This document shows, piece after piece, positions 3,601 through 34,088 of a stretch of DNA of 34,088 nt (the stretch's first letter is position 1; every line of letters begins with the position of its first letter). The DNA comes from Phycisphaerae bacterium SM23_33. GTDB lineage: Bacteria; Planctomycetota; Phycisphaerae; SM23-33. A model generated the notes under the pieces. The model was not told the origin of the DNA. It searched no databases and saw nothing but the letters and a program-made list of their open reading frames with translations. The position numbers and the translations under genes were made by a program. The stretch lies in the NCBI GenBank assembly GCA_001303665.1, contig LJUF01000001.1, forward strand, positions 1 through 34,088, written 5' to 3'.

Positions 3601-3987
3601 TCATTTCACCACGATTTTGTTGACGACCCTGCCCAGCAGGTCGAAGATGCGGTTCGCGTTGTCCTTGAGCGCCCGTTCCAAGTATTTCTTGCCGGGAACT
3701 TTCGTGCCCTTCGCAGTCGTCCATCCTAATTCTTGGAATGGAGCATAAACCACGTTGCTGCCCACTACGCCTTGCACCGTGTTGCTTTGCTGCCTGACCT
3801 CCGGCGTGATGCTGGCCCTGAGCCGCCCCGTATCCACCGGCGCGTTGATCTTGGCATGGCGTTCAACGAGCAGCGTCGCGTCCCTCATGCCCTGCAGGAA
3901 CGCGCCGCCTTGCAGGTCGCTGACGATCTGCTCCATTTTGGCTTGCACCTTTTCCATTCCCCGGACTTCTACGGTTACGTCGGTCAT
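3601..3987 (-). CDS. HK97 gp10-family head-tail joining protein
   Basis: 128 aa carrying the hallmark APVDTGRLRASI motif of the HK97-gp10-like family. Position is consistent with a neck module. Confidence 0.85.
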   Translation of the reverse strand: MTDVTVEVRGMEKVQAKMEQIVSDLQGGAFLQGMRDATLLVERHAKINAPVDTGRLRASITPEVRQQSNTVQGVVGSNVVYAPFQELGWTTAKGTKVPGKKYLERALKDNANRIFDLLGRVVNKIVVK

Positions 3988-3994
3988 TTGACAA
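3978..3994. repeat. 17-bp perfect direct repeat, copy 1 (cgtcggtcatttgacaa)
   Basis: Identical 17-mer occurs again at 4179-4195, 201 bp away. Copy 1 covers the first 10 nt of the gp10-like CDS (ATGACCGACG on the minus strand) plus the -35 hexamer of P1. Confidence 0.9.
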
Positions 3995-4016
3995 GATTTC
4001 CAATTGATACTATAAT
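3988..4016 (+). promoter_or_regulatory. Consensus sigma70-type promoter P1
   Basis: TTGACA (3988-3993), a spacer of exactly 17 nt, then TATAAT (4011-4016). Both hexamers match consensus perfectly. The predicted start near A4023 coincides with the first paired base of the downstream long stem. Confidence 0.7.
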
Positions 4017-4022
4017 ATCTTC

Positions 4023-4155
4023 ATTAAGCGGTAGAGAGCCTAGCCCTCCCGGGGTGGTAGAGTTGGAGGGGCGTGCCCCACATTAACCTGCGTAGCGTCT
4101 CCCGGTGGGGTTGGTCGGAGACCCAAGCCACCCGCTAGGCTCTTTGCCGCTTAAT
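4023..4155 (+). ncRNA. Unclassified structured RNA candidate (about 133 nt, 22-bp closing stem)
   Basis: 4023-4044 (attaagcggtagagagcctagc) pairs with 4134-4155 (gctaggctctttgccgcttaat) over 22 contiguous pairs. Two of these (4032/4146, 4034/4144) are G-U wobbles only in the plus-strand RNA and would be A-C mismatches on the minus strand. The GC-rich interior has several alternative helices, for example 4097-4102/4117-4122 and 4052-4057/4128-4133. It is followed by AGTTTCT. Confidence 0.45.
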
Positions 4156-4178
4156 AGTTTCTATCACCGCCTACCTAT

Positions 4179-4195
4179 CGTCGGTCATTTGACAA
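4179..4195. repeat. 17-bp perfect direct repeat, copy 2
   Basis: Identical to 3978-3994 and carries the -35 hexamer of P2. On the minus strand it gives only the pseudo-start ATGACCGACGATAGGTAG. Confidence 0.9.
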
Positions 4196-4217
4196 CCTAG
4201 AACATTTGTGTTATACT
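4189..4217 (+). promoter_or_regulatory. Near-consensus sigma70-type promoter P2
   Basis: TTGACA (4189-4194), 17-nt spacer, TATACT (4212-4217). The spacers of P1 and P2 are unrelated, yet both keep the 17-nt spacing and a good -10. Confidence 0.6.
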
Positions 4218-4221
4218 ATGT

Positions 4222-4302
4222 TTGGTTGGCAAGCGATTCGCGCTCGATAGGCGGTTTTCTTTATGCCCCCAATCTGCTAGAGTTGCGGTGCTTGCCAACC
4301 AA
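4222..4302 (+). promoter_or_regulatory. 5' leader stem-loop of the P2 transcript
   Basis: ttggttggcaagc (4222-4234) is perfectly complementary to gcttgccaaccaa (4290-4302), giving a 13-bp stem that begins at the predicted P2 start. The leader runs about 240 nt to the HNH start, with a T6 run at 4331-4336. Confidence 0.4.
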
Positions 4303-4337
4303 CAAGAACCGCCAGCGGAGCGGGGGCACTTTTTTCA

Positions 4338-4440
4338 GGGCGAGACCTGGCGAAGCGAGGCGCGGCATGGCGAGACGAGACGAGGCCTGTCCCGGCTTGC
4401 CCGGTCCTGGCAGGGCGTGGTTGATCGAGGCAAGGCAAGG
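4338..4440. repeat. Degenerate purine-rich repeat block U (upstream flank of the cassette genes)
   Basis: Shares exact words with the downstream block: ggcgagacctg (4339/5373), gcgaggcgcgg (4355/5465), ggtcctggca (4403/5478), ggcaaggcaagg (4429/5428). GAGAC/GAGGC/AAGGC pentamers recur with roughly 10-nt phasing. Confidence 0.6.
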
Positions 4441-4466
4441 ATTATCATAGAAAGGAATGCAGTCAT

Positions 4467-4967
4467 GTGAAATCACCTAGAAATGGATGGCGCGAAGCCG
4501 TCCTGGAACGGGACAATTTTGAATGTCAACTCTCAAAGTTGTTCGGCATAGCTGAGTTGACTGGCGTGCCCTGTTCGGAGGCGTTGCAGGCACATCACAA
4601 GACCTATGAACGATATGGTCAGGAACGCCCGGAAGATGGAATATGTGTTTGTGAAAGGTGCCATGACATCCTAACCGATGCGATAAGGCGCACACGCTAT
4701 TCAGCGAGAAATGCGCAATTCAAATGGGAACGAGATGTCGAAATGGTTACACCGAAACCAAGAAAGGATAAGGACAGTGAAAAAGCTACATTTTACCATC
4801 GTGGGCGAAGCCCCATTACTGATGCACAACGGGCGGCTGGCCGACAGGGACGACCCGTACAGCCGCAAGATGAGCGAGATCTCCAGCAAGAGGAGCAAAA
4901 CCGACGCCGATTACGAAGAACTAGCCAGGATGGAGTTCTTGGGCGGCCTCTACCTAGACGAGAATGA
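4467..4967 (+). CDS. HNH endonuclease (small phage type); C-terminal extent uncertain
   Basis: GTG start with AAAGGAA SD. WREAVLERDNFECQ...LQAHHKTYERYGQERPEDGICVCERCHDILT fits the HNH/zinc-finger pattern. About 43% GC. After about residue 100 the frame turns into Arg/Gln-rich low-complexity sequence that overlaps the next gene. Confidence 0.7.
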   Translation: MKSPRNGWREAVLERDNFECQLSKLFGIAELTGVPCSEALQAHHKTYERYGQERPEDGICVCERCHDILTDAIRRTRYSARNAQFKWERDVEMVTPKPRKDKDSEKATFYHRGRSPITDAQRAAGRQGRPVQPQDERDLQQEEQNRRRLRRTSQDGVLGRPLPRRE

Positions 4968-5361
4968 ACAACCTTGTATCCCCGGTTACGTCTTCGAGGC
5001 GTGTATCATTGGCAAGGGTGGCGCTGCCAGAAAGGAACGGATGGGCAAGGAAGCTGCTGCCGCTGTTTGGGTATTGGATGATGCGCCCTTGGAATATGAT
5101 GGACCGCGTGATCCCCAAGAACTTTGGCAGGACAAACGCTTCATATCGCAGTCTCTTGTCAGGGTGCAACGGAATACCGTCAAGCGCACCCGTCCCCGCT
5201 TCAAGGAATGGCAGGCCAATGTCACGGTCGAGTTCAACGAGAACTTGGTTGACGAGACCGATGTCCGCCGTTGGATTGAAGTCGCTGGTGAGCAAGTCGG
5301 CCTGATGGACTGGCGGCCTCGCTTCGGGCGGTTCCGCGTTGAATGGGACGGGCACAAATAA
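4777..5361 (+). CDS. Unknown protein, possible RAMP-like fold (speculative)
   Basis: ORF 4711..5361. The favoured start is GTG 4777 (AAGGA upstream), giving VKKLHFTIVGEAPLLMHNG... Composition is good throughout. Features include a beta-strand plus LLMHNG, then QPCIPGYVFEACIIGKGG, and a C-terminal GLMDWRPRFGRFRV. I recognise no family with confidence. Confidence 0.6.
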   Translation: MKKLHFTIVGEAPLLMHNGRLADRDDPYSRKMSEISSKRSKTDADYEELARMEFLGGLYLDENEQPCIPGYVFEACIIGKGGAARKERMGKEAAAAVWVLDDAPLEYDGPRDPQELWQDKRFISQSLVRVQRNTVKRTRPRFKEWQANVTVEFNENLVDETDVRRWIEVAGEQVGLMDWRPRFGRFRVEWDGHK

Positions 5362-5365
5362 CAGC

Positions 5366-5535
5366 ATGGCCTGGCGAGACCTGACGAGACTGGACGAGGT
5401 CGGACCTGACGAGACTTGATGGGGTGGGGCAAGGCAAGGGTGCTCTCAATTGTTAATGTACAAGGCGAGGCGCGGTTGGTCCTGGCATGTTCAGGCGCGG
5501 CGCGACCGGGTTGTGTTAGGCAAGGTAGAGCTTGG
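5366..5535. repeat. Degenerate repeat blocks D1+D2 (downstream flank of the cassette genes)
   Basis: D1 is 10-nt phased: ctggcgagac / ctgacgagac / tggacgaggt / cggac ctgacgagac (5371-5415), then ggcaaggcaagg. D2 (5461-5535) matches block U in colinear order with one gap of about 40 nt. Confidence 0.6.
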
Positions 5536-5542
5536 CATGGAA

Positions 5543-5570
5543 AAGGGCTGGCTGAAAAAAGTCAGCCCTT
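5543..5570. terminator. Bidirectional hairpin terminator between convergent units
   Basis: aagggctg (5543-5550) pairs with cagccctt (5563-5570). On the minus strand it lies 2 nt after the connector stop and is followed by TTTTCC. On the plus strand it is followed by TATCATC. The U-tracts are short. Confidence 0.5.
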
Positions 5571-5572
5571 TA

Positions 5573-6244
5573 TCATCTCCTACCAACCGTTGGTTTAACA
5601 TAACGCCCATCTATGAGCAACCTTCTTATGTCAGGGTCTAAAGATTGGCGATATAGTAAAGTTCCCAACTCACTTGAAGCTAAGACATCAGACATAGCGC
5701 TTTGGAAACGTTTATACCACCTGCTCGACTGCATCAGCGCCGCTTCCTTGATGTCGTAAGGCACGCTGGCCGCGAAGCCCCACCTGGCCGTGATGCGGCA
5801 AGTCGGCGCGCCCCTGCTCACGTCCGTCAGCGGCCTGAACCCGCCCTTTGAGGTGTACTTCCCCGAAGTGAAAACCGAATAATCCCCCGTCGGGTCCACC
5901 ATGACCATGTCGTAAGGCGTGCTGTTGAAGTCCGGCGCCTGCGGGTCGCCGGAGCAGGCGATCCAGTCCGCCGCGGCCCAGGCTTCGTAGTCGTCGTCGG
6001 CGGCCGAGTCTTTCACCTCGACCAGGGTGACGGACACGCACTCGTCGATGTAGAGGTACGGCCTGCCCGTCCCGGCGTAGATGCGGGCGCTGGCCGTCGC
6101 GTCGGCCTCGAAACCGTCTGGCCGGTTGCAGGCGCGGTTGATGTTGCGCTCCGCCGCCGCGATGAGCGCCGTCAGCGTGGCGTCGTCCGCCGCGCTGGTC
6201 TTGTCTATGCGGGCGCGTAGCTCGACTGCTGTGGCGTACGCCAT
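5573..6244 (-). CDS. Head-tail connector protein (gp6-like N-terminus, extended)
   Basis: MAYATAVELRARIDKTSAADDATLTALIAAAERNINRACNR is typical of the gp6-like head-tail connector / DNA-packaging family. ATG with GGAGG-N7. At 223 aa it is longer than the usual ~110 aa. Confidence 0.7.
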   Translation of the reverse strand: MAYATAVELRARIDKTSAADDATLTALIAAAERNINRACNRPDGFEADATASARIYAGTGRPYLYIDECVSVTLVEVKDSAADDDYEAWAAADWIACSGDPQAPDFNSTPYDMVMVDPTGDYSVFTSGKYTSKGGFRPLTDVSRGAPTCRITARWGFAASVPYDIKEAALMQSSRWYKRFQSAMSDVLASSELGTLLYRQSLDPDIRRLLIDGRYVKPTVGRR

Positions 6245-29086: not shown

Positions 29087-31516
29087 TTATAGGTATGGTA
29101 ATAACGTACATCTGCACATTGGATGAAGTGGCGGTGAAATTACATCCTCATAGTCGAACTTCATCGTCTGTTGCTTACCGTCCTCCATTTCAACCGCCAT
29201 CGTGTCGCCCCGTTTCCAAAAGCTGTCGCCCACCTTGATGATCTTCTCGTGCATCTCCGCGCACCAGGGGCAACGTCGTTCGTCAATCGCTGAATACCAT
29301 TGTTTGAGTTGTATCCCCCACCCGTTGTAAAGCATGTCGGCTGCCCGACCACTCGCCCTGATACTCTCAGTCCTCGATATGTTTTCGCGCCGGTAAGCCG
29401 GCATCCGCTGCTCGAACCAGGCGAAGTCCTCCGGCGAAAGGTCGCCCCCCATCCATTGCCCGAAAACTTCTTCCAAATGCTTTTGCATCGTCGGGATGCT
29501 CCACCCCTCTTCCATCGCCTGCCTGAAGACCTGGCTCATCATGTTGTCGGTAACATCAATGATTTCCTCGGTGAACGGCATCAGGTAGGAATCCAGGAAC
29601 TCGCTGGTGAGTACGTTGTACACGTCGAATTCCATCCCGAACTCCGCGTTCAACTGCGTTGCCCTGTCCACTATCAGCCCCGATACGACTGGCACGAACG
29701 TCTTCCGCCAGTTGTCCTTGCCCGCCATCGCCAAATAATCGGTCACCGCCAGCAAGACCGTCCCCCAGGCCACCGTCGCCTTGTCCTGCAATGCCTTCGC
29801 CTTGCCTTCCGAGACAATGGCCAGGATCTCCCGCAGGTCGTTCCCGAACGCCTCCGCCGCCGCGTCCCCGAAGCGTTTCTCCCACGAGCGGGCCTGGGCG
29901 TCCATCTGCTTCCAGAAGGCGGCTTTCTGCTCGGCGGTCATGCGGGACTGCTCCGGCGCTTCCGTCTCTTCCTCTTGCGCTATGGCCTTGGCTTCTTCTC
30001 CCTCCGCCTGCTCCTGCGCCCCCGGCGCGCCTTCCTCGGTTTCGGACTCCGCTTCTCCCTCCTCCCCGAAGCCCCGCGCCGGGACCTCGATGAGCGTCAT
30101 GGGGATCAGGTACACGTCGCCGCCCTCGACGGGGTCGAATTTGAGCACCGAGCGGTACTCGTTGCGGGTGATGCCCCCCGACTTGAAGGCCGTCGCCGCT
30201 GCTTCTTTCTTATCCGCCTCCGTCGGCGTCAGGGCAGGCACCCTGGACAGGTCGAAGGCCACGAACTCGCCGCGCTCCCCTTGCAGGTAATACTGGTAGT
30301 CCGCTTCGAACCAGCGCAGCTCCGGCGCCATCGTGTCCTCCCAGAACGCCTTGCGGGCCTCCTGGTAATTCGCGTAAGTAGCCCTGGAAAGGCCGATCCG
30401 GGTGCCGATCAGGATGGGCGGCACGCCGAAGGGTCCGGTGATGCGGGCCTCGCTGCGCTCGTCTATGACCTCGAAGCCCATCTCGTCAAAGGACAGGCCG
30501 AGGCGCTGGTACTCGCCGCCCTGGTCCAGCACGGCGATCTTGTGCATCTCGTCCGTGCCGCCGTAGATCTCCATCCACCGCTCGCGGGCGCGGGCCACGT
30601 CCACGTCCGTCATCGGCACGTCGAACTTCAGCAGGCCTGGCGGCATCGCGCCTTTCTCGAAGAAGAGCTTGAGGTACTTGGTGACCTGGTTGTCCACGTC
30701 GGCCGAGCGGGCCATGGGGGAGACGGGCGAGAGGCCGTAGCCCAGGCCGTCGAGGGGGTCGAGCGGGTTGGGAAGCTTGACGTGGATGACCTGTTGCGGC
30801 AGATAGGGCACGCCGTCGGCCTGCGATTTGCCTTCGGGCACGTAGTAGAAGCCGAGCAGCTTCTCGTCGCCGTCCCTGGCCTTCAGCGCCTTCCCGCCAG
30901 CGTCCAGAAGGGCTTTGTGTTCCCCCTTCTCTTTTTCGCCCACCCTCCACGTCGGATGGAACTTCATGGTTTTACCACGGTAGTCGGGGTGCGGGACGAT
31001 GTACGTCCTGTCCGGCCGCAGCAGCCACAGCGCTTTGGGCACCGGGCCGCCGTCGGGGTCCGGTTCCACGTAGATATAGACGTTGCCCGCCAGGTTGAGG
31101 TAGACCTCGGCGATGCCTTGGAACTCGCTCCAACTCATGTAGCGGTTGGGGCGGGCCGCGAGCCGCTGCAAGGGGTGGTCGGCGGGCAGGAGCTCCGGTT
31201 CGTCCTGCGTGCCGCCGTAGGCCCGGAGCGGCGCGATGGTGATGGACCGCACCTTGTACATGATGGCCGAGTAGACGACGGCGTTCTCGTTGAAGCCCTC
31301 CTGGGCATAGGCGGTGTAGTTGACGATCTGCCACTGGGGTTGGCCCATCCTCCAGGACGACCACAGGAACGGCGCGGCCTTCGCCTCCCCTGGCCAGGTG
31401 GGGACGGCCATCGGGGCACGGGCGGCGGGGCGGCGCGGGGCCATGTAGCGCGTGCCGTAGCGCCAGAAGTCCAGCGTCCATCTCAGGCGTTCAAGGAAGT
31501 TCGGTTTGTCCATCAT
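29087..31516 (-). CDS. Portal protein fused to an SPP1 gp7/MuF-like minor head protein domain
   Basis: 809 aa. The N-terminal ~480 aa has portal-like blocks (YSAIMYKVRSI, WLLRPDR, VDNQVTKYLKLFFEKGAMPP, GVPPILIG). An acidic linker follows. The C-terminus (ISRTESIRASG...RRCPWCAEMHEK...PPLHPMCRCTLLPY) is the MuF/gp7 signature. Confidence 0.85.
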   Translation of the reverse strand: MMDKPNFLERLRWTLDFWRYGTRYMAPRRPAARAPMAVPTWPGEAKAAPFLWSSWRMGQPQWQIVNYTAYAQEGFNENAVVYSAIMYKVRSITIAPLRAYGGTQDEPELLPADHPLQRLAARPNRYMSWSEFQGIAEVYLNLAGNVYIYVEPDPDGGPVPKALWLLRPDRTYIVPHPDYRGKTMKFHPTWRVGEKEKGEHKALLDAGGKALKARDGDEKLLGFYYVPEGKSQADGVPYLPQQVIHVKLPNPLDPLDGLGYGLSPVSPMARSADVDNQVTKYLKLFFEKGAMPPGLLKFDVPMTDVDVARARERWMEIYGGTDEMHKIAVLDQGGEYQRLGLSFDEMGFEVIDERSEARITGPFGVPPILIGTRIGLSRATYANYQEARKAFWEDTMAPELRWFEADYQYYLQGERGEFVAFDLSRVPALTPTEADKKEAAATAFKSGGITRNEYRSVLKFDPVEGGDVYLIPMTLIEVPARGFGEEGEAESETEEGAPGAQEQAEGEEAKAIAQEEETEAPEQSRMTAEQKAAFWKQMDAQARSWEKRFGDAAAEAFGNDLREILAIVSEGKAKALQDKATVAWGTVLLAVTDYLAMAGKDNWRKTFVPVVSGLIVDRATQLNAEFGMEFDVYNVLTSEFLDSYLMPFTEEIIDVTDNMMSQVFRQAMEEGWSIPTMQKHLEEVFGQWMGGDLSPEDFAWFEQRMPAYRRENISRTESIRASGRAADMLYNGWGIQLKQWYSAIDERRCPWCAEMHEKIIKVGDSFWKRGDTMAVEMEDGKQQTMKFDYEDVISPPLHPMCRCTLLPYL

Positions 31517-31611
31517 TATTCTCTGTCCCGGTTATAGAAACGAAAGAGCATAACTATGAAAAACGTTTGTAGCAACTCAATCATAACGAATAACCACTCG
31601 CTGTCTGTCAT
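31516..31611 (-). CDS. 31-aa hydrophobic micro-ORF between terL and portal (not in the ORF track)
   Basis: MTDSEWLFVMIELLQTFFIVMLFRFYNRDRE. Its ATG overlaps the terL stop (ATGA) and its TAA overlaps the portal ATG (TAATG). AT-rich. Confidence 0.35.
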   Translation of the reverse strand: MTDSEWLFVMIELLQTFFIVMLFRFYNRDRE

Positions 31612-33053
31612 CCCACGAAAACACCTTTACGCTTCAAATTCGCCAACACCACCGCGTCCCCGCAGTCAGGCGAACGCTTCAATCGTTTGACGATATCCTC
31701 CTTGCTCTCTACCTGGACGCCCTGCGTGGTGATCTTCCATTTCGGTGCGGTCAGATCGGCCAGCAGTTCCGGATCGTCGGGCAGGGCCACGTCGTCGCCG
31801 TCGTGCGGGTCCAGGCTCTCCCTCATGCCCCAGTACGCCTCGGCCCGCACGTTGCGCATCTCCAGCCGCTTCGACTTGTCCCTGGCTTTGGTGCCCTCCC
31901 CGAAGTTGACGCCCTTGACGCTGAAGCCTTGGTCGCGCAAGATGTCGTAGGGCGACGAACCCCAACCGACGATGTCCAGGTTGACGGGCACGGACTTGTC
32001 CCCGCCGACGGCGCTCACCACCAAAGCCGCCGCCCTCGGCCCGTCGGTCACGGCTTTGCCGGGATGCTTCGCCAGTTCGCCGAACCAGTTACCCCAGCGC
32101 GGGGCCATGACCATCCTGTCCTTGCCGCCCCTGGCTACGTCCACGCCCAGGCAGGTCATCGGCTCTCCCGGTTTCTCCCTTTCCTTCCACCGCTCTTGGG
32201 CGAGGCGGACCCAGTCGGTCGGTATGATCTGCCAAGGGTCATCCCCGACTCCGATAGTAAAGTCTCCATATAGGAGCTGACTTCTGAGAGGCTCCGGCAA
32301 TCCCTGTAGAATTGCCTCATAGCCCGTGTTAGCAAGGTAAGGGTTATCCGAAAGGCGTGCAGGTATAAAAGTGCGGCTTTTGGGCTGAATCGTTTCTCCG
32401 TCATGCTCGAACGGCTCACCGCTTTCCACCTCCACGTCCTCGTCCCCGACCCTGGCGAACCAGCGCAGTTCCCCCGGCACGGCGGGGTCGGGGTGCTTCT
32501 CGTCCAGCCAGGGAGCCCAAAATTTAATTACCCAACGTCCCGTTGCTGCTGTGGGTGGATTACCACAGGCAATCACGCGAACTCTCTGGCCAAGAATCGT
32601 AGTCCTGGCCCATGCTGTCAGAAATCTAAATTGATGCTCAGTGAAATCTGCGATTTCATCGAAGGCCACTAAATCGTGGGGACGACCTTTGAATCGAATT
32701 ACATCCTTCTCGTATTGGCAACTTGCTAGTTCAAGAATACGATCACCAGGTATGTCCCTCCAAAGCCCACTGACTGAATTGTATTTTGCATTGGTGTCAG
32801 CGAGAATCTCGTGGGTTCTCAAGACCACATCGCGAAGCTGCGGAAATTCCCGGCGTAGGAGCAAGCTCTTTTTGTGGCTTGTAAGGGCTAATCCGATAAG
32901 CAGATCGCTTTTTCCCCCGCCTGCTTGCCCTCCGAAATAAAGAATATCTGCTTCAGACAAACATGCCTGAAGTTGAGGCCCAGGGAGCGGCAACCAAAGT
33001 GCTTGATCCGGATATTGATAAAGATAGGTCAACCGAGCCAATTGAGTTTTCAC
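31608..33053 (-). CDS. terL: Terminase large subunit
   Basis: FGGQAGGGKSDLLIGLAL Walker A, LVAFDEI Walker B-like, and a C-terminal nuclease-like region (GVDVARGGKD). GTG start. Located upstream of the portal gene. Confidence 0.9.
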   Translation of the reverse strand: MKTQLARLTYLYQYPDQALWLPLPGPQLQACLSEADILYFGGQAGGGKSDLLIGLALTSHKKSLLLRREFPQLRDVVLRTHEILADTNAKYNSVSGLWRDIPGDRILELASCQYEKDVIRFKGRPHDLVAFDEIADFTEHQFRFLTAWARTTILGQRVRVIACGNPPTAATGRWVIKFWAPWLDEKHPDPAVPGELRWFARVGDEDVEVESGEPFEHDGETIQPKSRTFIPARLSDNPYLANTGYEAILQGLPEPLRSQLLYGDFTIGVGDDPWQIIPTDWVRLAQERWKEREKPGEPMTCLGVDVARGGKDRMVMAPRWGNWFGELAKHPGKAVTDGPRAAALVVSAVGGDKSVPVNLDIVGWGSSPYDILRDQGFSVKGVNFGEGTKARDKSKRLEMRNVRAEAYWGMRESLDPHDGDDVALPDDPELLADLTAPKWKITTQGVQVESKEDIVKRLKRSPDCGDAVVLANLKRKGVFVG

Positions 33054-33058
33054 GCATC

Positions 33059-33787
33059 TTACACGTAACCAAACGATTTATACATCAGTATGCGATTAAA
33101 GGCACTCGCCTGCCCTTCGCTACCATGCAACCAGTTATGATAACCCTGACTACATACAAATAAGTTTTCGAGACGGTTATCATGTTTATTCCCATTCAAA
33201 TGATGTACCAGTTCATCTGAGCACAAAGGGCGCCCAAGTTCTTTGGCTATGACAACGCGGTGCCCTAATTCATTATCAACAAATACATAAGGCCGATGAT
33301 CGCCGTTTGCGTGCAATCTGGCAACGTGGCATTCCCAACATACCTCGGCCCGCCTTGCCATTAGCTTGCCACATCCGCAAATATTATATTGTGGGGCTTC
33401 CGAAGGGTCTATGCCTCTAGTGTCAAGTAACGCCCGGACAGCCTCACTATCAGACTCCTTAATACGTTTATGTCTTCGGCAATTCAGGCATAATGCTGAT
33501 GTCTTCGCTTTCGGCGCTCCACATTCACAAAGGTTGTATTGACATGTATCACGGGGACTTCTGCCTTCGGCACTAAGCAACGCTCGCATGTTAGCACTAT
33601 TGAGCCTCCACTCACGCCTCCGACACCTCAGGCATCTCTTCCCGCCAGGACTTTTGAGTCCACCACACTCAGGACAAACGTAACGCTCCGGCTTGGATGC
33701 CTGGCCTACGCCAGCACATTTACTACATCTTTTGGATGTCCGATACTTATAGCCCCCACAATCAGGGCAAATATTCACGTTCGACAT
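33059..33787 (-). CDS. HNH endonuclease with four N-terminal zinc-ribbon repeats
   Basis: ELVHHLNGNKHDNRLENLFVC...HNWLH forms the HNH core. It is preceded by four repeats of a CxxC(G)...CxxC(R) pattern. ATG 33787 has a GAGGA SD (the track start is 33823). About 43% GC. Confidence 0.8.
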   Translation of the reverse strand: MSNVNICPDCGGYKYRTSKRCSKCAGVGQASKPERYVCPECGGLKSPGGKRCLRCRRREWRLNSANMRALLSAEGRSPRDTCQYNLCECGAPKAKTSALCLNCRRHKRIKESDSEAVRALLDTRGIDPSEAPQYNICGCGKLMARRAEVCWECHVARLHANGDHRPYVFVDNELGHRVVIAKELGRPLCSDELVHHLNGNKHDNRLENLFVCSQGYHNWLHGSEGQASAFNRILMYKSFGYV

Positions 33788-34088
33788 CTTGTTCCTCATT
33801 AGCTTGTGCATAAATCTCGGCAAGCTGCTTTAGTGCTCGCTCCTGTTGCTCTGCCGTTAGTTGTACATTCCCTACCAGCAATGGCCCACCTTCCGCCCCG
33901 GTGATCTCCTGCCGCAATTTTCTTCCCCCTGTCTCCTTTGCTAAATCATCCAACACGCCGCGCAACTCACTAATGATAGCCGCATTGAATCGCTCAATAT
34001 CTATTCGCTCAATATTCTTACCAGCGCCAATTTGCTTGACATCTGGCAACCATACATTATGATAATTCCCGTCTTCACCCTGCTCATA
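33762..34088 (-). CDS. terS: Probable terminase small subunit, C-terminal part (5' end outside the window)
   Basis: The frame is open from base 34088 (YEQGEDGNYHNVWLPDVKQIGAGKN...). Coiled-coil acidic C-terminus. The call rests on its position upstream of HNH and terL only. Confidence 0.45.
   Translation of the reverse strand, partial: YEQGEDGNYHNVWLPDVKQIGAGKNIERIDIERFNAAIISELRGVLDDLAKETGGRKLRQEITGAEGGPLLVGNVQLTAEQQERALKQLAEIYAQANEEQDVEREYLP

What the first reader, a model, noticed from the sequence alone, without database searches (positions are those of the whole stretch)
3978..5572. Opposite-strand cassette in the neck module: consensus promoters, structured RNAs, HNH nuclease and an unknown protein
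This is the only plus-strand coding region in the window. It is wedged between the connector gene and the gp10-like gene, and parts of it drop to about 43% GC.

Its architecture, in order:
- A 17-bp direct repeat plus a perfect TTGACA-17-TATAAT promoter.
- A ~133-nt RNA whose 22-bp closing stem begins at the predicted transcription start.
- The second repeat copy plus a TTGACA-17-TATACT promoter.
- A leader that also begins with a 13-bp stem.
- Degenerate repeat block U.
- A small HNH nuclease, then a ~194-aa unknown protein.
- Repeat blocks D1 and D2, then a hairpin terminator.

A self-contained promoter-to-terminator unit firing head-on against the late operon has the classic layout of a prophage-expressed moron. 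An RNA, a nuclease and an unknown partner protein together would fit an RNA-associated immunity or exclusion module, or a mobile homing cassette that carries cargo. I cannot assign the set to any described system from the sequence alone.
Basis: partly seen in the sequence, partly recalled or inferred. Interest (0 to 1): 0.85.

Follow-up and report, generated by a model that had tools for sequence, protein, structure and literature searches.

The report
Phage VIPR RNA-guided interference cassette
This cassette is a VIPR system, a phage-borne relative of CRISPR first described in 2026. A small Cas7-like protein reads "GGC-NN" repeat RNAs, and one of those RNAs is programmed against the head-tail connector gene of sibling phages that lack the cassette.

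Summary
The unit can now be assigned: it is a VIPR (Viral Interference Programmable Repeat) locus.

- **Protein.** The 194-aa "unknown" protein is a Vipr RAMP. It matches the solved SUSP1 Vipr protein (PDB 36pp, E=5e-39). Its model (pLDDT 93) resembles Csm3/Cas7.
- **Guide RNAs.** The "degenerate repeat blocks" U, D1 and D2 are pentanucleotide GGY-NN arrays, the vrRNA guides. They occur only here in 34 kb, and only on the vipr strand.
- **HNH.** The small HNH gene lies directly upstream of vipr in at least 44 of 82 related loci, so it is a conserved accessory gene.
- **Insertion.** The cassette is a precise 1,585-bp insertion (3988-5572). In four related phages the connector stop abuts the gp10-like start.
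- **Target.** Read with the published 1-nt-skip code, vrRNA D2 matches the connector gene of five cassette-free related phages at 25-27 of 30 coded positions, in the wobble frame. The phage's own allele matches only 21 of 30.
- **133-nt RNA.** The promoter-driven structured RNA is real as sequence. It has no Rfam match and is absent from all relatives, so it is not the system's RNA partner.

Verdict: a new member of a known, very recently described kind.

The parts
3978..3994 (+). Direct repeat, copy 1 (CGTCGGTCATTTGACAA). It contains the first 10 nt of the minus-strand gp10-like gene (ATGACCGACG) and the -35 box of P1.
3988..4016 (+). P1, a perfect sigma-70 consensus promoter (TTGACA-17-TATAAT).
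4023..4155 (+). RNA-1, a 133-nt element closed by a 22-nt inverted repeat, with a predicted three-way junction. No Rfam family, no homologue in relatives, function unexplained.
4179..4195 (+). Direct repeat, copy 2. Similarity to copy 1 continues at about 70% through the -10 box, so the promoter was duplicated.
4189..4217 (+). P2 (TTGACA-17-TATACT, with an extended -10 TG). It is the likely promoter of the VIPR operon.
4222..4302 (+). Leader hairpin with a perfect 13-bp closing stem that starts at the predicted transcription start. An alternative pairing (4264-4278 with 4314-4328) followed by T6 is possible.
4339..4466 (+). vrRNA U. It has 20 GGYNN units (4339-4438; 12 canonical GGY), then GG and an A/T-rich tail (ATTATCAT...) that runs into the HNH start. 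Target not found.
4467..4967 (+). HNH accessory (vap-like) gene with a GTG start. The conserved domain is about the first 100 aa (4467-~4780). The rest of the ORF is the -1 frame of vipr. H43, H44, C62-x2-C65 and H66 are invariant, and C20/C36 complete the zinc site.
4777..5361 (+). vipr, a 194-aa RAMP (Cas7/Csm3-like) protein. It is homologous to SUSP1 Vipr and keeps the GGY-binding residues H17, R139, D178, W179 and R180.
5363..5463 (+). vrRNA D1. It has 15 units, only 6 of them canonical GGY and 8 GAY, ending GGCAA GGCAA GG plus a tail (..CAATTGTT..). It may be decayed. Target not found.
5464..5572 (+). vrRNA D2. It has 15 units (5464-5538; 10 canonical), then GG, a terminator hairpin (5543-5571) and TTATCATC. 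Its NN code targets connector genes of related phages.
5703..5747 (-). Site in the phage's own connector gene that is homologous to the D2 target. It matches 21 of 30 NN positions (below the published 80% criterion), in the wobble-skipping frame.
5573..6244 (-). Head-tail connector gene, the right flank of the insertion. Its stop codon directly abuts the cassette.
3601..3987 (-). HK97 gp10-like gene, the left flank. In cassette-free relatives its start abuts or overlaps the connector stop.

Best explanation
Window 3988-5572 is a VIPR locus of the HNH-associated clade. It is inserted exactly between the connector and gp10-like genes of an HK97-like tailed phage and points against the late operon.

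Inferred expression: host RNA polymerase starts at P2 (and P1) and makes a plus-strand transcript with this order: leader hairpin, vrRNA U, HNH, vipr, vrRNA D1, vrRNA D2, terminator. The transcript is processed into guide RNAs of roughly 100 nt.

Mechanism, inferred from the published SUSP1 system and from conserved residues here: Vipr protomers polymerise one per GGYNN unit, bury each GGY and present the NN dinucleotides. The NN pair with double-stranded DNA while skipping every third base.

Shown here: the D2 code matches the connector gene of related, cassette-free phages at 83-90% of coded positions. The skipped base falls on the codon wobble position. The site lies about 130-175 bp from where the cassette sits. 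The carrier's own allele has 9 mismatches.

Inferred outcome: when a sibling phage co-infects or superinfects, the D2 complex binds its late operon and blocks it, and/or the HNH nuclease damages its DNA. The rival is excluded.

The P1 plus 133-nt RNA unit is a later, lineage-specific addition of unknown role.
For: Vipr identity
- PDB sequence search hits 36pp_D, 'SUSP1 Vipr protein', at E=5e-39 over residues 2-190.
- The AlphaFold model has pLDDT 93.4. Its top PDB fold matches are all Csm3/Cas7 RAMPs.
- It belongs to PHROG 4652 at 1e-52.
- SUSP1 residues H17, R138, D177, W178 and R179 are conserved here (their roles are taken from 10.64898/2026.04.26.720927).

vrRNA arrays
- In the window, GGYNN arrays score only at 4339-4438 and 5464-5538, plus one 4-unit chance run, all on the plus strand.
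- The same kind of array flanks vipr, on its strand, in every relative examined.

HNH
- An HNH gene lies directly upstream of vipr in 44 of 82 loci.
- The HNH-bearing Viprs form their own clade.

Insertion
- L095-L098 have the connector stop abutting the gp10-like start.

Target
- D2 matches the phage's own connector at 21 of 30. Only 2 of 400 unit shuffles reach that score anywhere in the window, and 0 of 2000 within the gene.
- An IMG/VR scan with units 1-10 returned 5 hits. All are at the homologous codons of connector homologues (54-70% aa identity) and extend to 25-27 of 30.
- Only the 1-nt-skip rule gives these scores. Skips of 0, 2 or 3 give 16-20.
- Three hits in the roughly tenfold larger genome set do not extend (21-22 of 30) and are not in connector genes. 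This shows what chance hits look like.
Against: - No expression, processing or binding data exist for this locus. The vrRNA ends are inferred.
- The SUSP1 K33 contact, whose alanine mutant abolished silencing, is Ser33 here, and the Y3-pocket residues differ.
- D1 is mostly GAY units. In SUSP1 the GGY>GAY change abolished silencing, so D1 may be inactive.
- No targets were found for U or D1.
- The window's HNH scores below the Pfam threshold, and there is no evidence that it cleaves or is guided.
- The paper's type (I-VII) could not be assigned because its figures and data files are not held.
Confidence: 0.87

Rival explanations
1. RNA-guided homing (gene drive). The Vipr-vrRNA D2 complex brings the HNH nuclease to the connector gene of cassette-free sibling phages, next to the empty insertion site. 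Recombinational repair from the carrier genome then copies in both the cassette and the linked resistant connector allele. This extends the best explanation rather than excluding it.
For: - The target lies 130-175 bp from the insertion point, and the carrier allele is mismatched.
- The cassette is a clean intergenic insertion that relatives lack.
- Close HNH-vipr relatives occupy three unrelated contexts.
- Two other HNH-type loci have a vrRNA that partly matches the immediately adjacent gene in the wobble frame: L010 at 19 of 22, 27 bp away, and L055 at 24 of 30, 289 bp away. Overall there were 5 real hits against 1 shuffled hit in 1083 tests.
- The closest solved HNH domains belong to RNA-guided nucleases: IscB at 4.6e-9 and the HNH-bearing Cascade CasD at 4.6e-7.
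Against: - There is no evidence of cleavage or of an HNH-Vipr contact.
- Most vrRNAs in related loci show no match to their flanks.
- The sample is small. Linkage of a guide to a resistant allele would also be selected under pure exclusion.
- Scanning for a perfect target of the L010 guide found nothing.
Confidence: 0.22
2. The HNH gene is an independent, protein-guided, free-standing homing endonuclease that happens to sit beside vipr. In this case the VIPR works only as a repressor.
For: - Phage HNH genes are common selfish elements. A second, unrelated HNH_3 gene lies at 33059-33823.
- The characterised type II VIPR silences without a nuclease.
Against: - HNH stays directly upstream of vipr, ending at or within the start of vipr, in 44 of 82 loci, down to about 40% Vipr identity.
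- The HNH proteins are homologous to one another and track the Vipr clade. A hitch-hiker would not do this.
Confidence: 0.1
3. One reading: the 133-nt structured RNA, the HNH and the unknown protein together form a new RNA-associated immunity module.
For: RNA-1 is strongly structured (z = -4.8) and sits behind a perfect promoter.
Against: - RNA-1 and RNA-2 have no homologue in any related HNH-vipr locus.
- RNA-1 has no Rfam match.
- The protein is a Vipr, whose cognate RNAs are the GGYNN arrays.
Confidence: 0.03
4. The repeat blocks act at the DNA level, as phased protein-binding sites or iterons, or are recombination scars, and are not guide RNAs.
For: They are G-rich, periodic and flank the genes like the ends of an element.
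Against: - They are strictly strand-specific relative to vipr in all loci.
- The variable dinucleotides use all 16 combinations.
- D2 decodes to a real gene only under the published RNA code.
Confidence: 0.02

Closest known systems
Type II VIPR of Escherichia phage SUSP1 and the P. fulva prophage (bioRxiv 10.64898/2026.04.26.720920; structures in 10.64898/2026.04.26.720927; PDB 36pp)
   Same: - Homologous Vipr protein (36% identity, E=5e-39) that keeps the GGY-binding residues.
- GGYNN arrays both upstream and downstream of the genes, each ending in a short constant tail.
- The 1-nt-skip code, with the skipped base on the codon wobble position.
- Natural targets in competing phage-like elements.
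- No self-target at 80% or above.
   Different: - The accessory gene is a small HNH nuclease upstream of vipr, not a DNA-binding vap1 downstream.
- The Vipr falls in a separate clade.
- The tail is short and A/T-rich, with no recognisable SUSP1-type pseudoknot.
- K33 is replaced by Ser.
- U has 20 units, against the published range of 9-16.
- The target is a structural (connector) gene of sibling phages that lies next to the cassette's own insertion site, not a satellite or a lysis-lysogeny regulator.
Nuclease-encoding VIPR types III and V (same preprint)
   Same: - An HNH-domain vap is figured for type III.
- The vrRNAs of these types target viral sequences.
   Different: - The preprint describes these types as enriched in cellular defence islands and as serving host immunity.
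- This locus sits inside a phage structural module and targets that phage's own relatives.
- Whether it belongs to type III could not be checked.
Class 1 CRISPR Cas7/Csm3 backbone subunits, including HNH-bearing Cascade
   Same: - RAMP fold with G-loop and thumb; the top fold matches are Csm3.
- One protomer binds per fixed-length RNA segment.
- The nearest solved HNH domains include the HNH fused to Cascade CasD.
   Different: - No CRISPR array, no Cas1/Cas2, no Cas10 or large subunit.
- The guide is read discontinuously (2 of every 5 nt), not as a continuous spacer.
IS605-family TnpB and IscB (OMEGA) guide-RNA homing (PMC10690162)
   Same: - A mobile element encodes its own guide RNA.
- That guide recognises the vacant or donor-less site.
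- The HNH domain is most similar to that of IscB.
   Different: - No RuvC domain and no transposase.
- The NCBIfam IscB score is 21.6 bits against a 175-bit cut-off.
- Homing is only hypothesised here.
PeSL promoter/stem-loop cassettes of T4-type phages (PMC2839356, PMC4122927; known to me from the titles and abstracts only)
   Same: Duplicated consensus early-type promoters, each followed by a stem-loop, flank an inserted gene set. They could mediate modular shuffling.
   Different: No sequence relationship was tested, the phage lineage is different, and only two copies occur in this window.

Membership tests
VIPR system | Vipr protein: a minimal RAMP (RRM core, G-loop, thumb) homologous to characterised Viprs | tested here: met
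   PDB 36pp_D 'SUSP1 Vipr protein' at E=5e-39 over residues 2-190. Model pLDDT 93.4. Foldseek top hits are Csm3/Cas7. C-terminal G-loop motif GLMDWRPRFGRF is invariant.
VIPR system | Residues that recognise the GGY motif (SUSP1 H17, R138, D177, W178, R179) and the target backbone (K33) | tested here: inconclusive
   H17, R139, D178, W179 and R180 are conserved. K33 aligns to S33, and E71/M72 align to Y71/V72. Five of the six functionally tested or G-binding positions are kept.
VIPR system | Tandem YNNGG (GGY/NN) pentanucleotide arrays flanking vipr on the same strand | tested here: met
   U has 20 units and D2 has 15. They are the only long arrays in 34 kb, both on the plus strand. D1 has 15 degenerate units. 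Arrays are present in all relatives checked.
VIPR system | Constant 3' tail after each repeat tract | tested here: inconclusive
   The arrays end in GGCAA(GGCAA)GG followed by ATTATCAT, CAATTGTT or a hairpin plus TTATCATC. Relatives share a GGCARGG...CAATCAT-like motif. No conserved fold was established.
VIPR system | Minimal locus of vipr plus one accessory (vap) gene, with no CRISPR array and no other cas genes | tested here: met
   Only HNH and vipr lie between the flanking phage genes. HNH-vipr synteny holds in 44 of 82 loci.
VIPR system | NN dinucleotides specify natural targets by the 1-nt-skip rule, with the skipped base on the codon wobble position, in competing mobile elements | tested here: met
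   D2 matches five IMG/VR connector genes at 25-27 of 30, in frame. Other skip rules give 16-20.
VIPR system | No self-target at 80% NN match or above | tested here: met
   The best self match is 21 of 30 (70%) for D2, 23 of 40 for U and 19 of 30 for D1.
VIPR system | vrRNAs are expressed, about 100 nt long, and co-purify with Vipr; silencing is programmable | not testable with these tools
   This needs small-RNA sequencing, pull-down and reporter assays.
VIPR type III (HNH vap) | Placement in the preprint's Vipr phylogeny and its vap cluster | not testable with these tools
   The figures and data S4 are not held. My own tree only shows an HNH clade distinct from the SUSP1, LESphi2 and Medea1 clade.
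CRISPR-Cas (class 1) | CRISPR repeat-spacer array plus a cas gene set (Cas1/2, large subunit) | tested here: not met
   There are no direct repeats of CRISPR type and no further cas-like ORFs. PADLOC gives no hit.
IscB / OMEGA nuclease | RuvC plus HNH protein scoring above the NCBIfam guided_IscB cut-off, with an omega-RNA | tested here: not met
   21.6 bits against a 175-bit cut-off, covering the HNH domain only. Rfam gives no hit.
Free-standing HNH homing endonuclease | Intergenic insertion absent from relatives, plus cleavage of the cassette-free allele near the insertion site | tested here: inconclusive
   The insertion and empty sites are shown. The HNH catalytic residues are intact. Cleavage cannot be tested here.

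The most novel reading that the evidence does not exclude
The HNH-type VIPR cassette is an RNA-guided homing element. One of its own vrRNAs (D2) marks the cassette-free allele of the gene next to the insertion site in sibling phages. The HNH cuts there. Repair then copies the cassette together with the resistant connector allele. This would be a programmable gene drive operating between viruses, built on a pre-CRISPR RAMP.
Probability: 0.2. Interest if true: 0.85.

Novelty: new member of a known kind. Interest (0 to 1): 0.5.

Why it matters
VIPR was described only in 2026, and experiments so far cover type II systems that lack a nuclease.

This locus adds three things:
- It is a clean natural example from the HNH-associated clade, carried by a phage rather than a cellular defence island.
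- It has an identifiable natural target, a visible self/non-self difference (9 mismatched coded positions in the carrier's own allele), and empty-site relatives.
- The target lies next to the insertion point. This makes a specific question testable: do nuclease-bearing VIPRs merely exclude rival phages, or do they also drive their own spread by RNA-guided homing?

It also shows that a reader working from raw sequence can recover such loci from the repeat blocks alone.

Tried and rejected
- **Rfam.** A permissive search of 3800-5800 gave only a chance snoRNA hit on the wrong strand. No tRNA or tmRNA was found.
- **PADLOC.** No match for either protein.
- **NCBIfam.** No match for Vipr.
- **DNA similarity to phages.** blastn of the cassette against 50,697 phage records gave nothing.
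- **RNA-1 and RNA-2 homologues.** None in 94 fetched loci apart from identical copies. The 21-nt RNA-1 arm had no exact match in the metagenome or genome collections. That metagenome collection evidently lacks the contigs L005-L009 that carry this phage. The five identical JGI contigs give no covariation information.
- **RNA-1 versus RNA-2.** Beyond the promoter, the two units show no convincing similarity.
- **Targets of U and D1.** No significant local match. No exact 10-unit match in IMG/VR or in metagenomes.
- **L010 guide.** A scan for a second perfect flank target found nothing.
- **A selected HNH/vipr overlap.** Rejected. The -1 frame of the vipr 5' end is just as open in loci without HNH.
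- **gp10-like protein as an IMG/VR query.** It found no relatives. The connector protein did.
- **Paper type assignment.** Not possible, because the supplements are not held.


Full report
**Observation**

- Two near-perfect sigma-70 promoters lie at 3988-4016 (12/12) and 4189-4217 (11/12).
- Only three sites of 11/12 or better exist on either strand of the 34-kb window. Block shuffles expect 0.1.
- Each promoter is embedded in a copy of the 17-mer CGTCGGTCATTTGACAA, which occurs exactly twice. Similarity between the two copies continues at about 70% through the -10 box.
- Copy 1 includes the first 10 nt of the minus-strand gp10-like gene. The second copy therefore records a duplication of the original junction.
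- The 133-nt element 4023-4155 is closed by 22-nt arms (91% complementary). It folds far better than shuffles (-70.2 kcal/mol, z = -4.8).
- The leader begins with a perfect 13-bp stem and as a 118-nt unit gives z = -2.5. The longer stretch up to the HNH start is unremarkable (z = +0.4).
- The cassette is less GC-rich than its surroundings: 54.6% against 60.9%, with HNH at 48.7%.

**Surroundings**

The window is the structural module of an HK97-like tailed phage, on the minus strand.
- Identified genes are the portal, the prohead protease, the major capsid protein, the connector (5573-6244) and the gp10-like gene (3601-3987).
- Five JGI metagenome contigs are 99.8-100% identical copies of the same phage and carry an identical cassette.

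**Identity of the 194-aa protein**

- It belongs to PHROG 4652, function unknown (1e-52).
- It has 656 homologues in the large protein collection and homologues in 130 deposited phages. These include Felixounaviruses, Gordonia phage Trine, Mycobacterium phage LittleE, and Pseudomonas phages LESphi2 and Medea1.
- An AlphaFold model built on 30 homologues is confident (pLDDT 93.4). Its best PDB fold matches are all Csm3/Cas7 RAMP subunits.
- A profile search of PDB sequences gave a single hit: 36pp_D, "SUSP1 Vipr protein", E=5e-39 over the whole length.

That hit led to two 2026 preprints describing VIPR (Viral Interference Programmable Repeat) systems. According to those papers:
- A minimal RAMP, Vipr, polymerises on vrRNAs made of 9-16 tandem GGY/NN pentanucleotides followed by a constant tail.
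- The NN dinucleotides pair with double-stranded DNA while every third target base is skipped. That skipped base is usually the codon wobble position.
- The complex silences competing phages.

The SUSP1 residues that bind the two guanines (H17, R138, D177, W178, R179) are conserved here. K33 is Ser33 and the pyrimidine-pocket residues differ.

**The repeat blocks are the guide RNAs**

- A register-aware scan for GGYNN arrays scores only 4339-4438 (U, 20 units) and 5464-5538 (D2, 15 units) in the whole window, plus one 4-unit chance run. All are on the plus strand and none on the minus strand.
- D1 (5363-5437) keeps the period but has 8 GAY units against 6 GGY. In the preprint, changing GGY to GAY abolished silencing, so D1 may be decaying.
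- In every related locus examined, arrays of this kind flank vipr on its own strand. They end in GGCA(A/G)GG plus a short A/T-rich tail.
- In 258 units from the closest relatives, 79% are GGC or GGT and all 16 dinucleotides occur at NN.
- The "terminator" hairpin 5543-5571 is embedded in the tail of D2.

**HNH**

- The ORF at 4467 hits PHROG HNH families (4e-9).
- Its Pfam score is sub-threshold because an 11-residue insertion splits the first zinc knuckle. Relatives pass the threshold (26-29 bits).
- H43, H44, C62, C65 and H66 are invariant, and C20 plus C36 complete the zinc site.
- A homologous HNH gene lies immediately upstream of vipr in 44 of 82 loci.
- In a neighbour-joining tree these Viprs form a clade separate from the SUSP1, wV8, LESphi2 and Medea1 group, which carries a different downstream accessory gene.
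- The nearest solved HNH domains are those of IscB (4.6e-9) and of HNH-bearing Cascade CasD (4.6e-7).
- The formal 166-aa ORF overlaps vipr by 191 nt. The same frame is equally open in loci without HNH, so I see no evidence that the overlap is selected.

**The cassette is an insertion**

- In related phages L095-L098 (connector 54-70% identical) the connector stop abuts or overlaps the gp10-like start. Window 3988-5572 is therefore a precise 1,585-bp intergenic insertion.
- Close HNH-vipr relatives (76-80% Vipr identity) lie in quite different places: after a lytic transglycosylase gene (L010), and between the clamp-loader and primase genes (L012). The unit is mobile.
- Where it is co-oriented with its neighbours it has no promoter or structured-RNA region of the kind seen here.
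- In this window it opposes the late operon. That is a plausible reason for it to carry its own promoters (inference).

**Natural target**

- Replacing each GGY of D2 by one wildcard gives NGANGCNTGNCTNATNCANGCNGCNCGNTGNTANAANAGNTTNAT.
- Its best match in the window is the phage's own connector gene (minus strand, 5703-5747), at 21 of 30, with the wildcard on the wobble position.
  - Only 2 of 400 unit shuffles reach 21 anywhere in the window, and 0 of 2000 do so within the gene.
- An exact scan of IMG/VR with units 1-10 (20 specified bases) returned five contigs. All hits are at the homologous codons of connector homologues, and none of the five contigs carries the cassette.
  - The full code matches 25-27 of 30, or 25-27 of 28 without the last unit.
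  - The target peptide is EACLMQAARWFKRF. The carrier's own is EAALMQSSRWYKRFQ.
- Other skip lengths give only 16-20.
- The same scan of a roughly tenfold larger genome collection gave three hits that do not extend (21-22 of 30) and are not in connector genes. This calibrates chance.
- The published criteria for a natural target are met: at least 80% NN match, the wobble register, and no self-target. The own allele escapes with nine mismatched positions.
- Targets for U and D1 were not found.

**Mechanism and open points**

- *Shown:* the components, their conservation, the insertion, and the D2-connector correspondence.
- *Inferred from the SUSP1 work:* filament assembly, gapped pairing, and transcriptional block of the rival's late operon.
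- *Unknown:* what the HNH does.

[quoted passage not shown] Here an HNH-type system is carried by a phage and aimed at its own relatives.

The target lies 130-175 bp from the insertion point. Two other HNH-type loci have a guide that partly matches the immediately adjacent gene in the wobble frame:
- L010 matches at 19 of 22, 27 bp away.
- L055 matches at 24 of 30, 289 bp away.
- Overall, 5 real hits were found against 1 shuffled hit in 1083 tests.

For these reasons I raise RNA-guided homing as the most novel reading that the evidence does not exclude. The analogy is TnpB guide-RNA homing (PMC10690162). The sample is small, and tight linkage of a guide to a resistant allele would also be favoured under simple exclusion. 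I give it about 0.2.

**The 133-nt RNA**

- It has no Rfam family.
- It has no homologue in any relative.
- Its arm has no exact match in two large collections.
- No variation is available to test covariation.
- It is not part of the conserved system.
- The layout, duplicated early-type promoters each followed by a stem-loop at the transcript start, resembles the PeSL cassettes of T4-type phages (PMC2839356, PMC4122927). Its role remains unexplained. Possibilities are 5'-end protection, RNase III processing, or an independent small RNA.

**Verdict**

This is a real, coherent feature and a new member of the recently described VIPR kind, in its HNH-associated clade. What I could not find in the two preprints I read is a defined natural target next to the insertion site, together with the homing hypothesis that it makes testable.

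Noticed in passing
window 6257-~22000 (minus strand): A block of roughly 16 kb lies between the major capsid gene and the connector gene. Part of it encodes sugar- or modification-type enzymes: NAD-epimerase, several SAM methyltransferases, a SPASM/radical-SAM protein and a nucleotidyltransferase. This is an unusual place for such a cluster and might modify the virion or the DNA.
   Followed up: partly
window 34036-34063 (+): A third near-consensus sigma-70 promoter (TTGACA-16-TATGAT, 11/12) lies at the very end of the window. It is the only other such site in 34 kb and may start another plus-strand (early?) unit beyond the window.
   Followed up: no
window 33059-33823 (-) and 31608-33053 (-): A second, unrelated HNH_3-domain protein lies next to a 481-aa ORF with no Pfam hit, which by position may be the terminase large subunit. 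This would be the common HNH-terminase pairing.
   Followed up: no
window 29087-31516 (-): The portal protein is fused to a Mu F-like (minor head protein) domain, giving an 809-aa protein.
   Followed up: no
L004 (Escherichia phage wV8, EU877232) 3708-3890 and 5106-5292: The repeat_region features annotated 'DR_4' on either side of gp95/gp94 in this 2008 GenBank record coincide with the vrRNA arrays and tails of a SUSP1-type VIPR locus. gp95 is the Vipr homologue and is still labelled hypothetical.
   Followed up: partly
window 5363-5437 (+): vrRNA D1 has 8 GAY units against 6 GGY. Its first units repeat the start of U (GGCGA GACCT GRCGA). It may be a partial duplicate that is decaying, or this clade may tolerate A at position 2: GAY makes up 11% of units in close relatives.
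   Followed up: partly
window 4264-4335 (+): The segment TGCCCCCAATCTGCT inside the leader hairpin can pair instead with AGCGGAGCGGGGGCA, which is followed by T6. This gives an attenuator-like pair of mutually exclusive structures between P2 and vrRNA U.
   Followed up: no
L012/L015 (IMGVR_UViG_3300029267_002377, 108.9 kb): This large phage carries a related HNH-vipr cassette between its clamp-loader and primase genes. It also encodes a Ro60/TROVE protein and a queuosine-type gene set (PTPS, radical SAM, GTP cyclohydrolase I).
   Followed up: no
L045 2472-2522 (-): A vrRNA of this locus matches, at 25 of 34 positions, a sequence only 10 bp from its own array on the opposite strand. The match is not in an open frame and is unexplained. 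It may be an artefact or a regulatory self-site.
   Followed up: no
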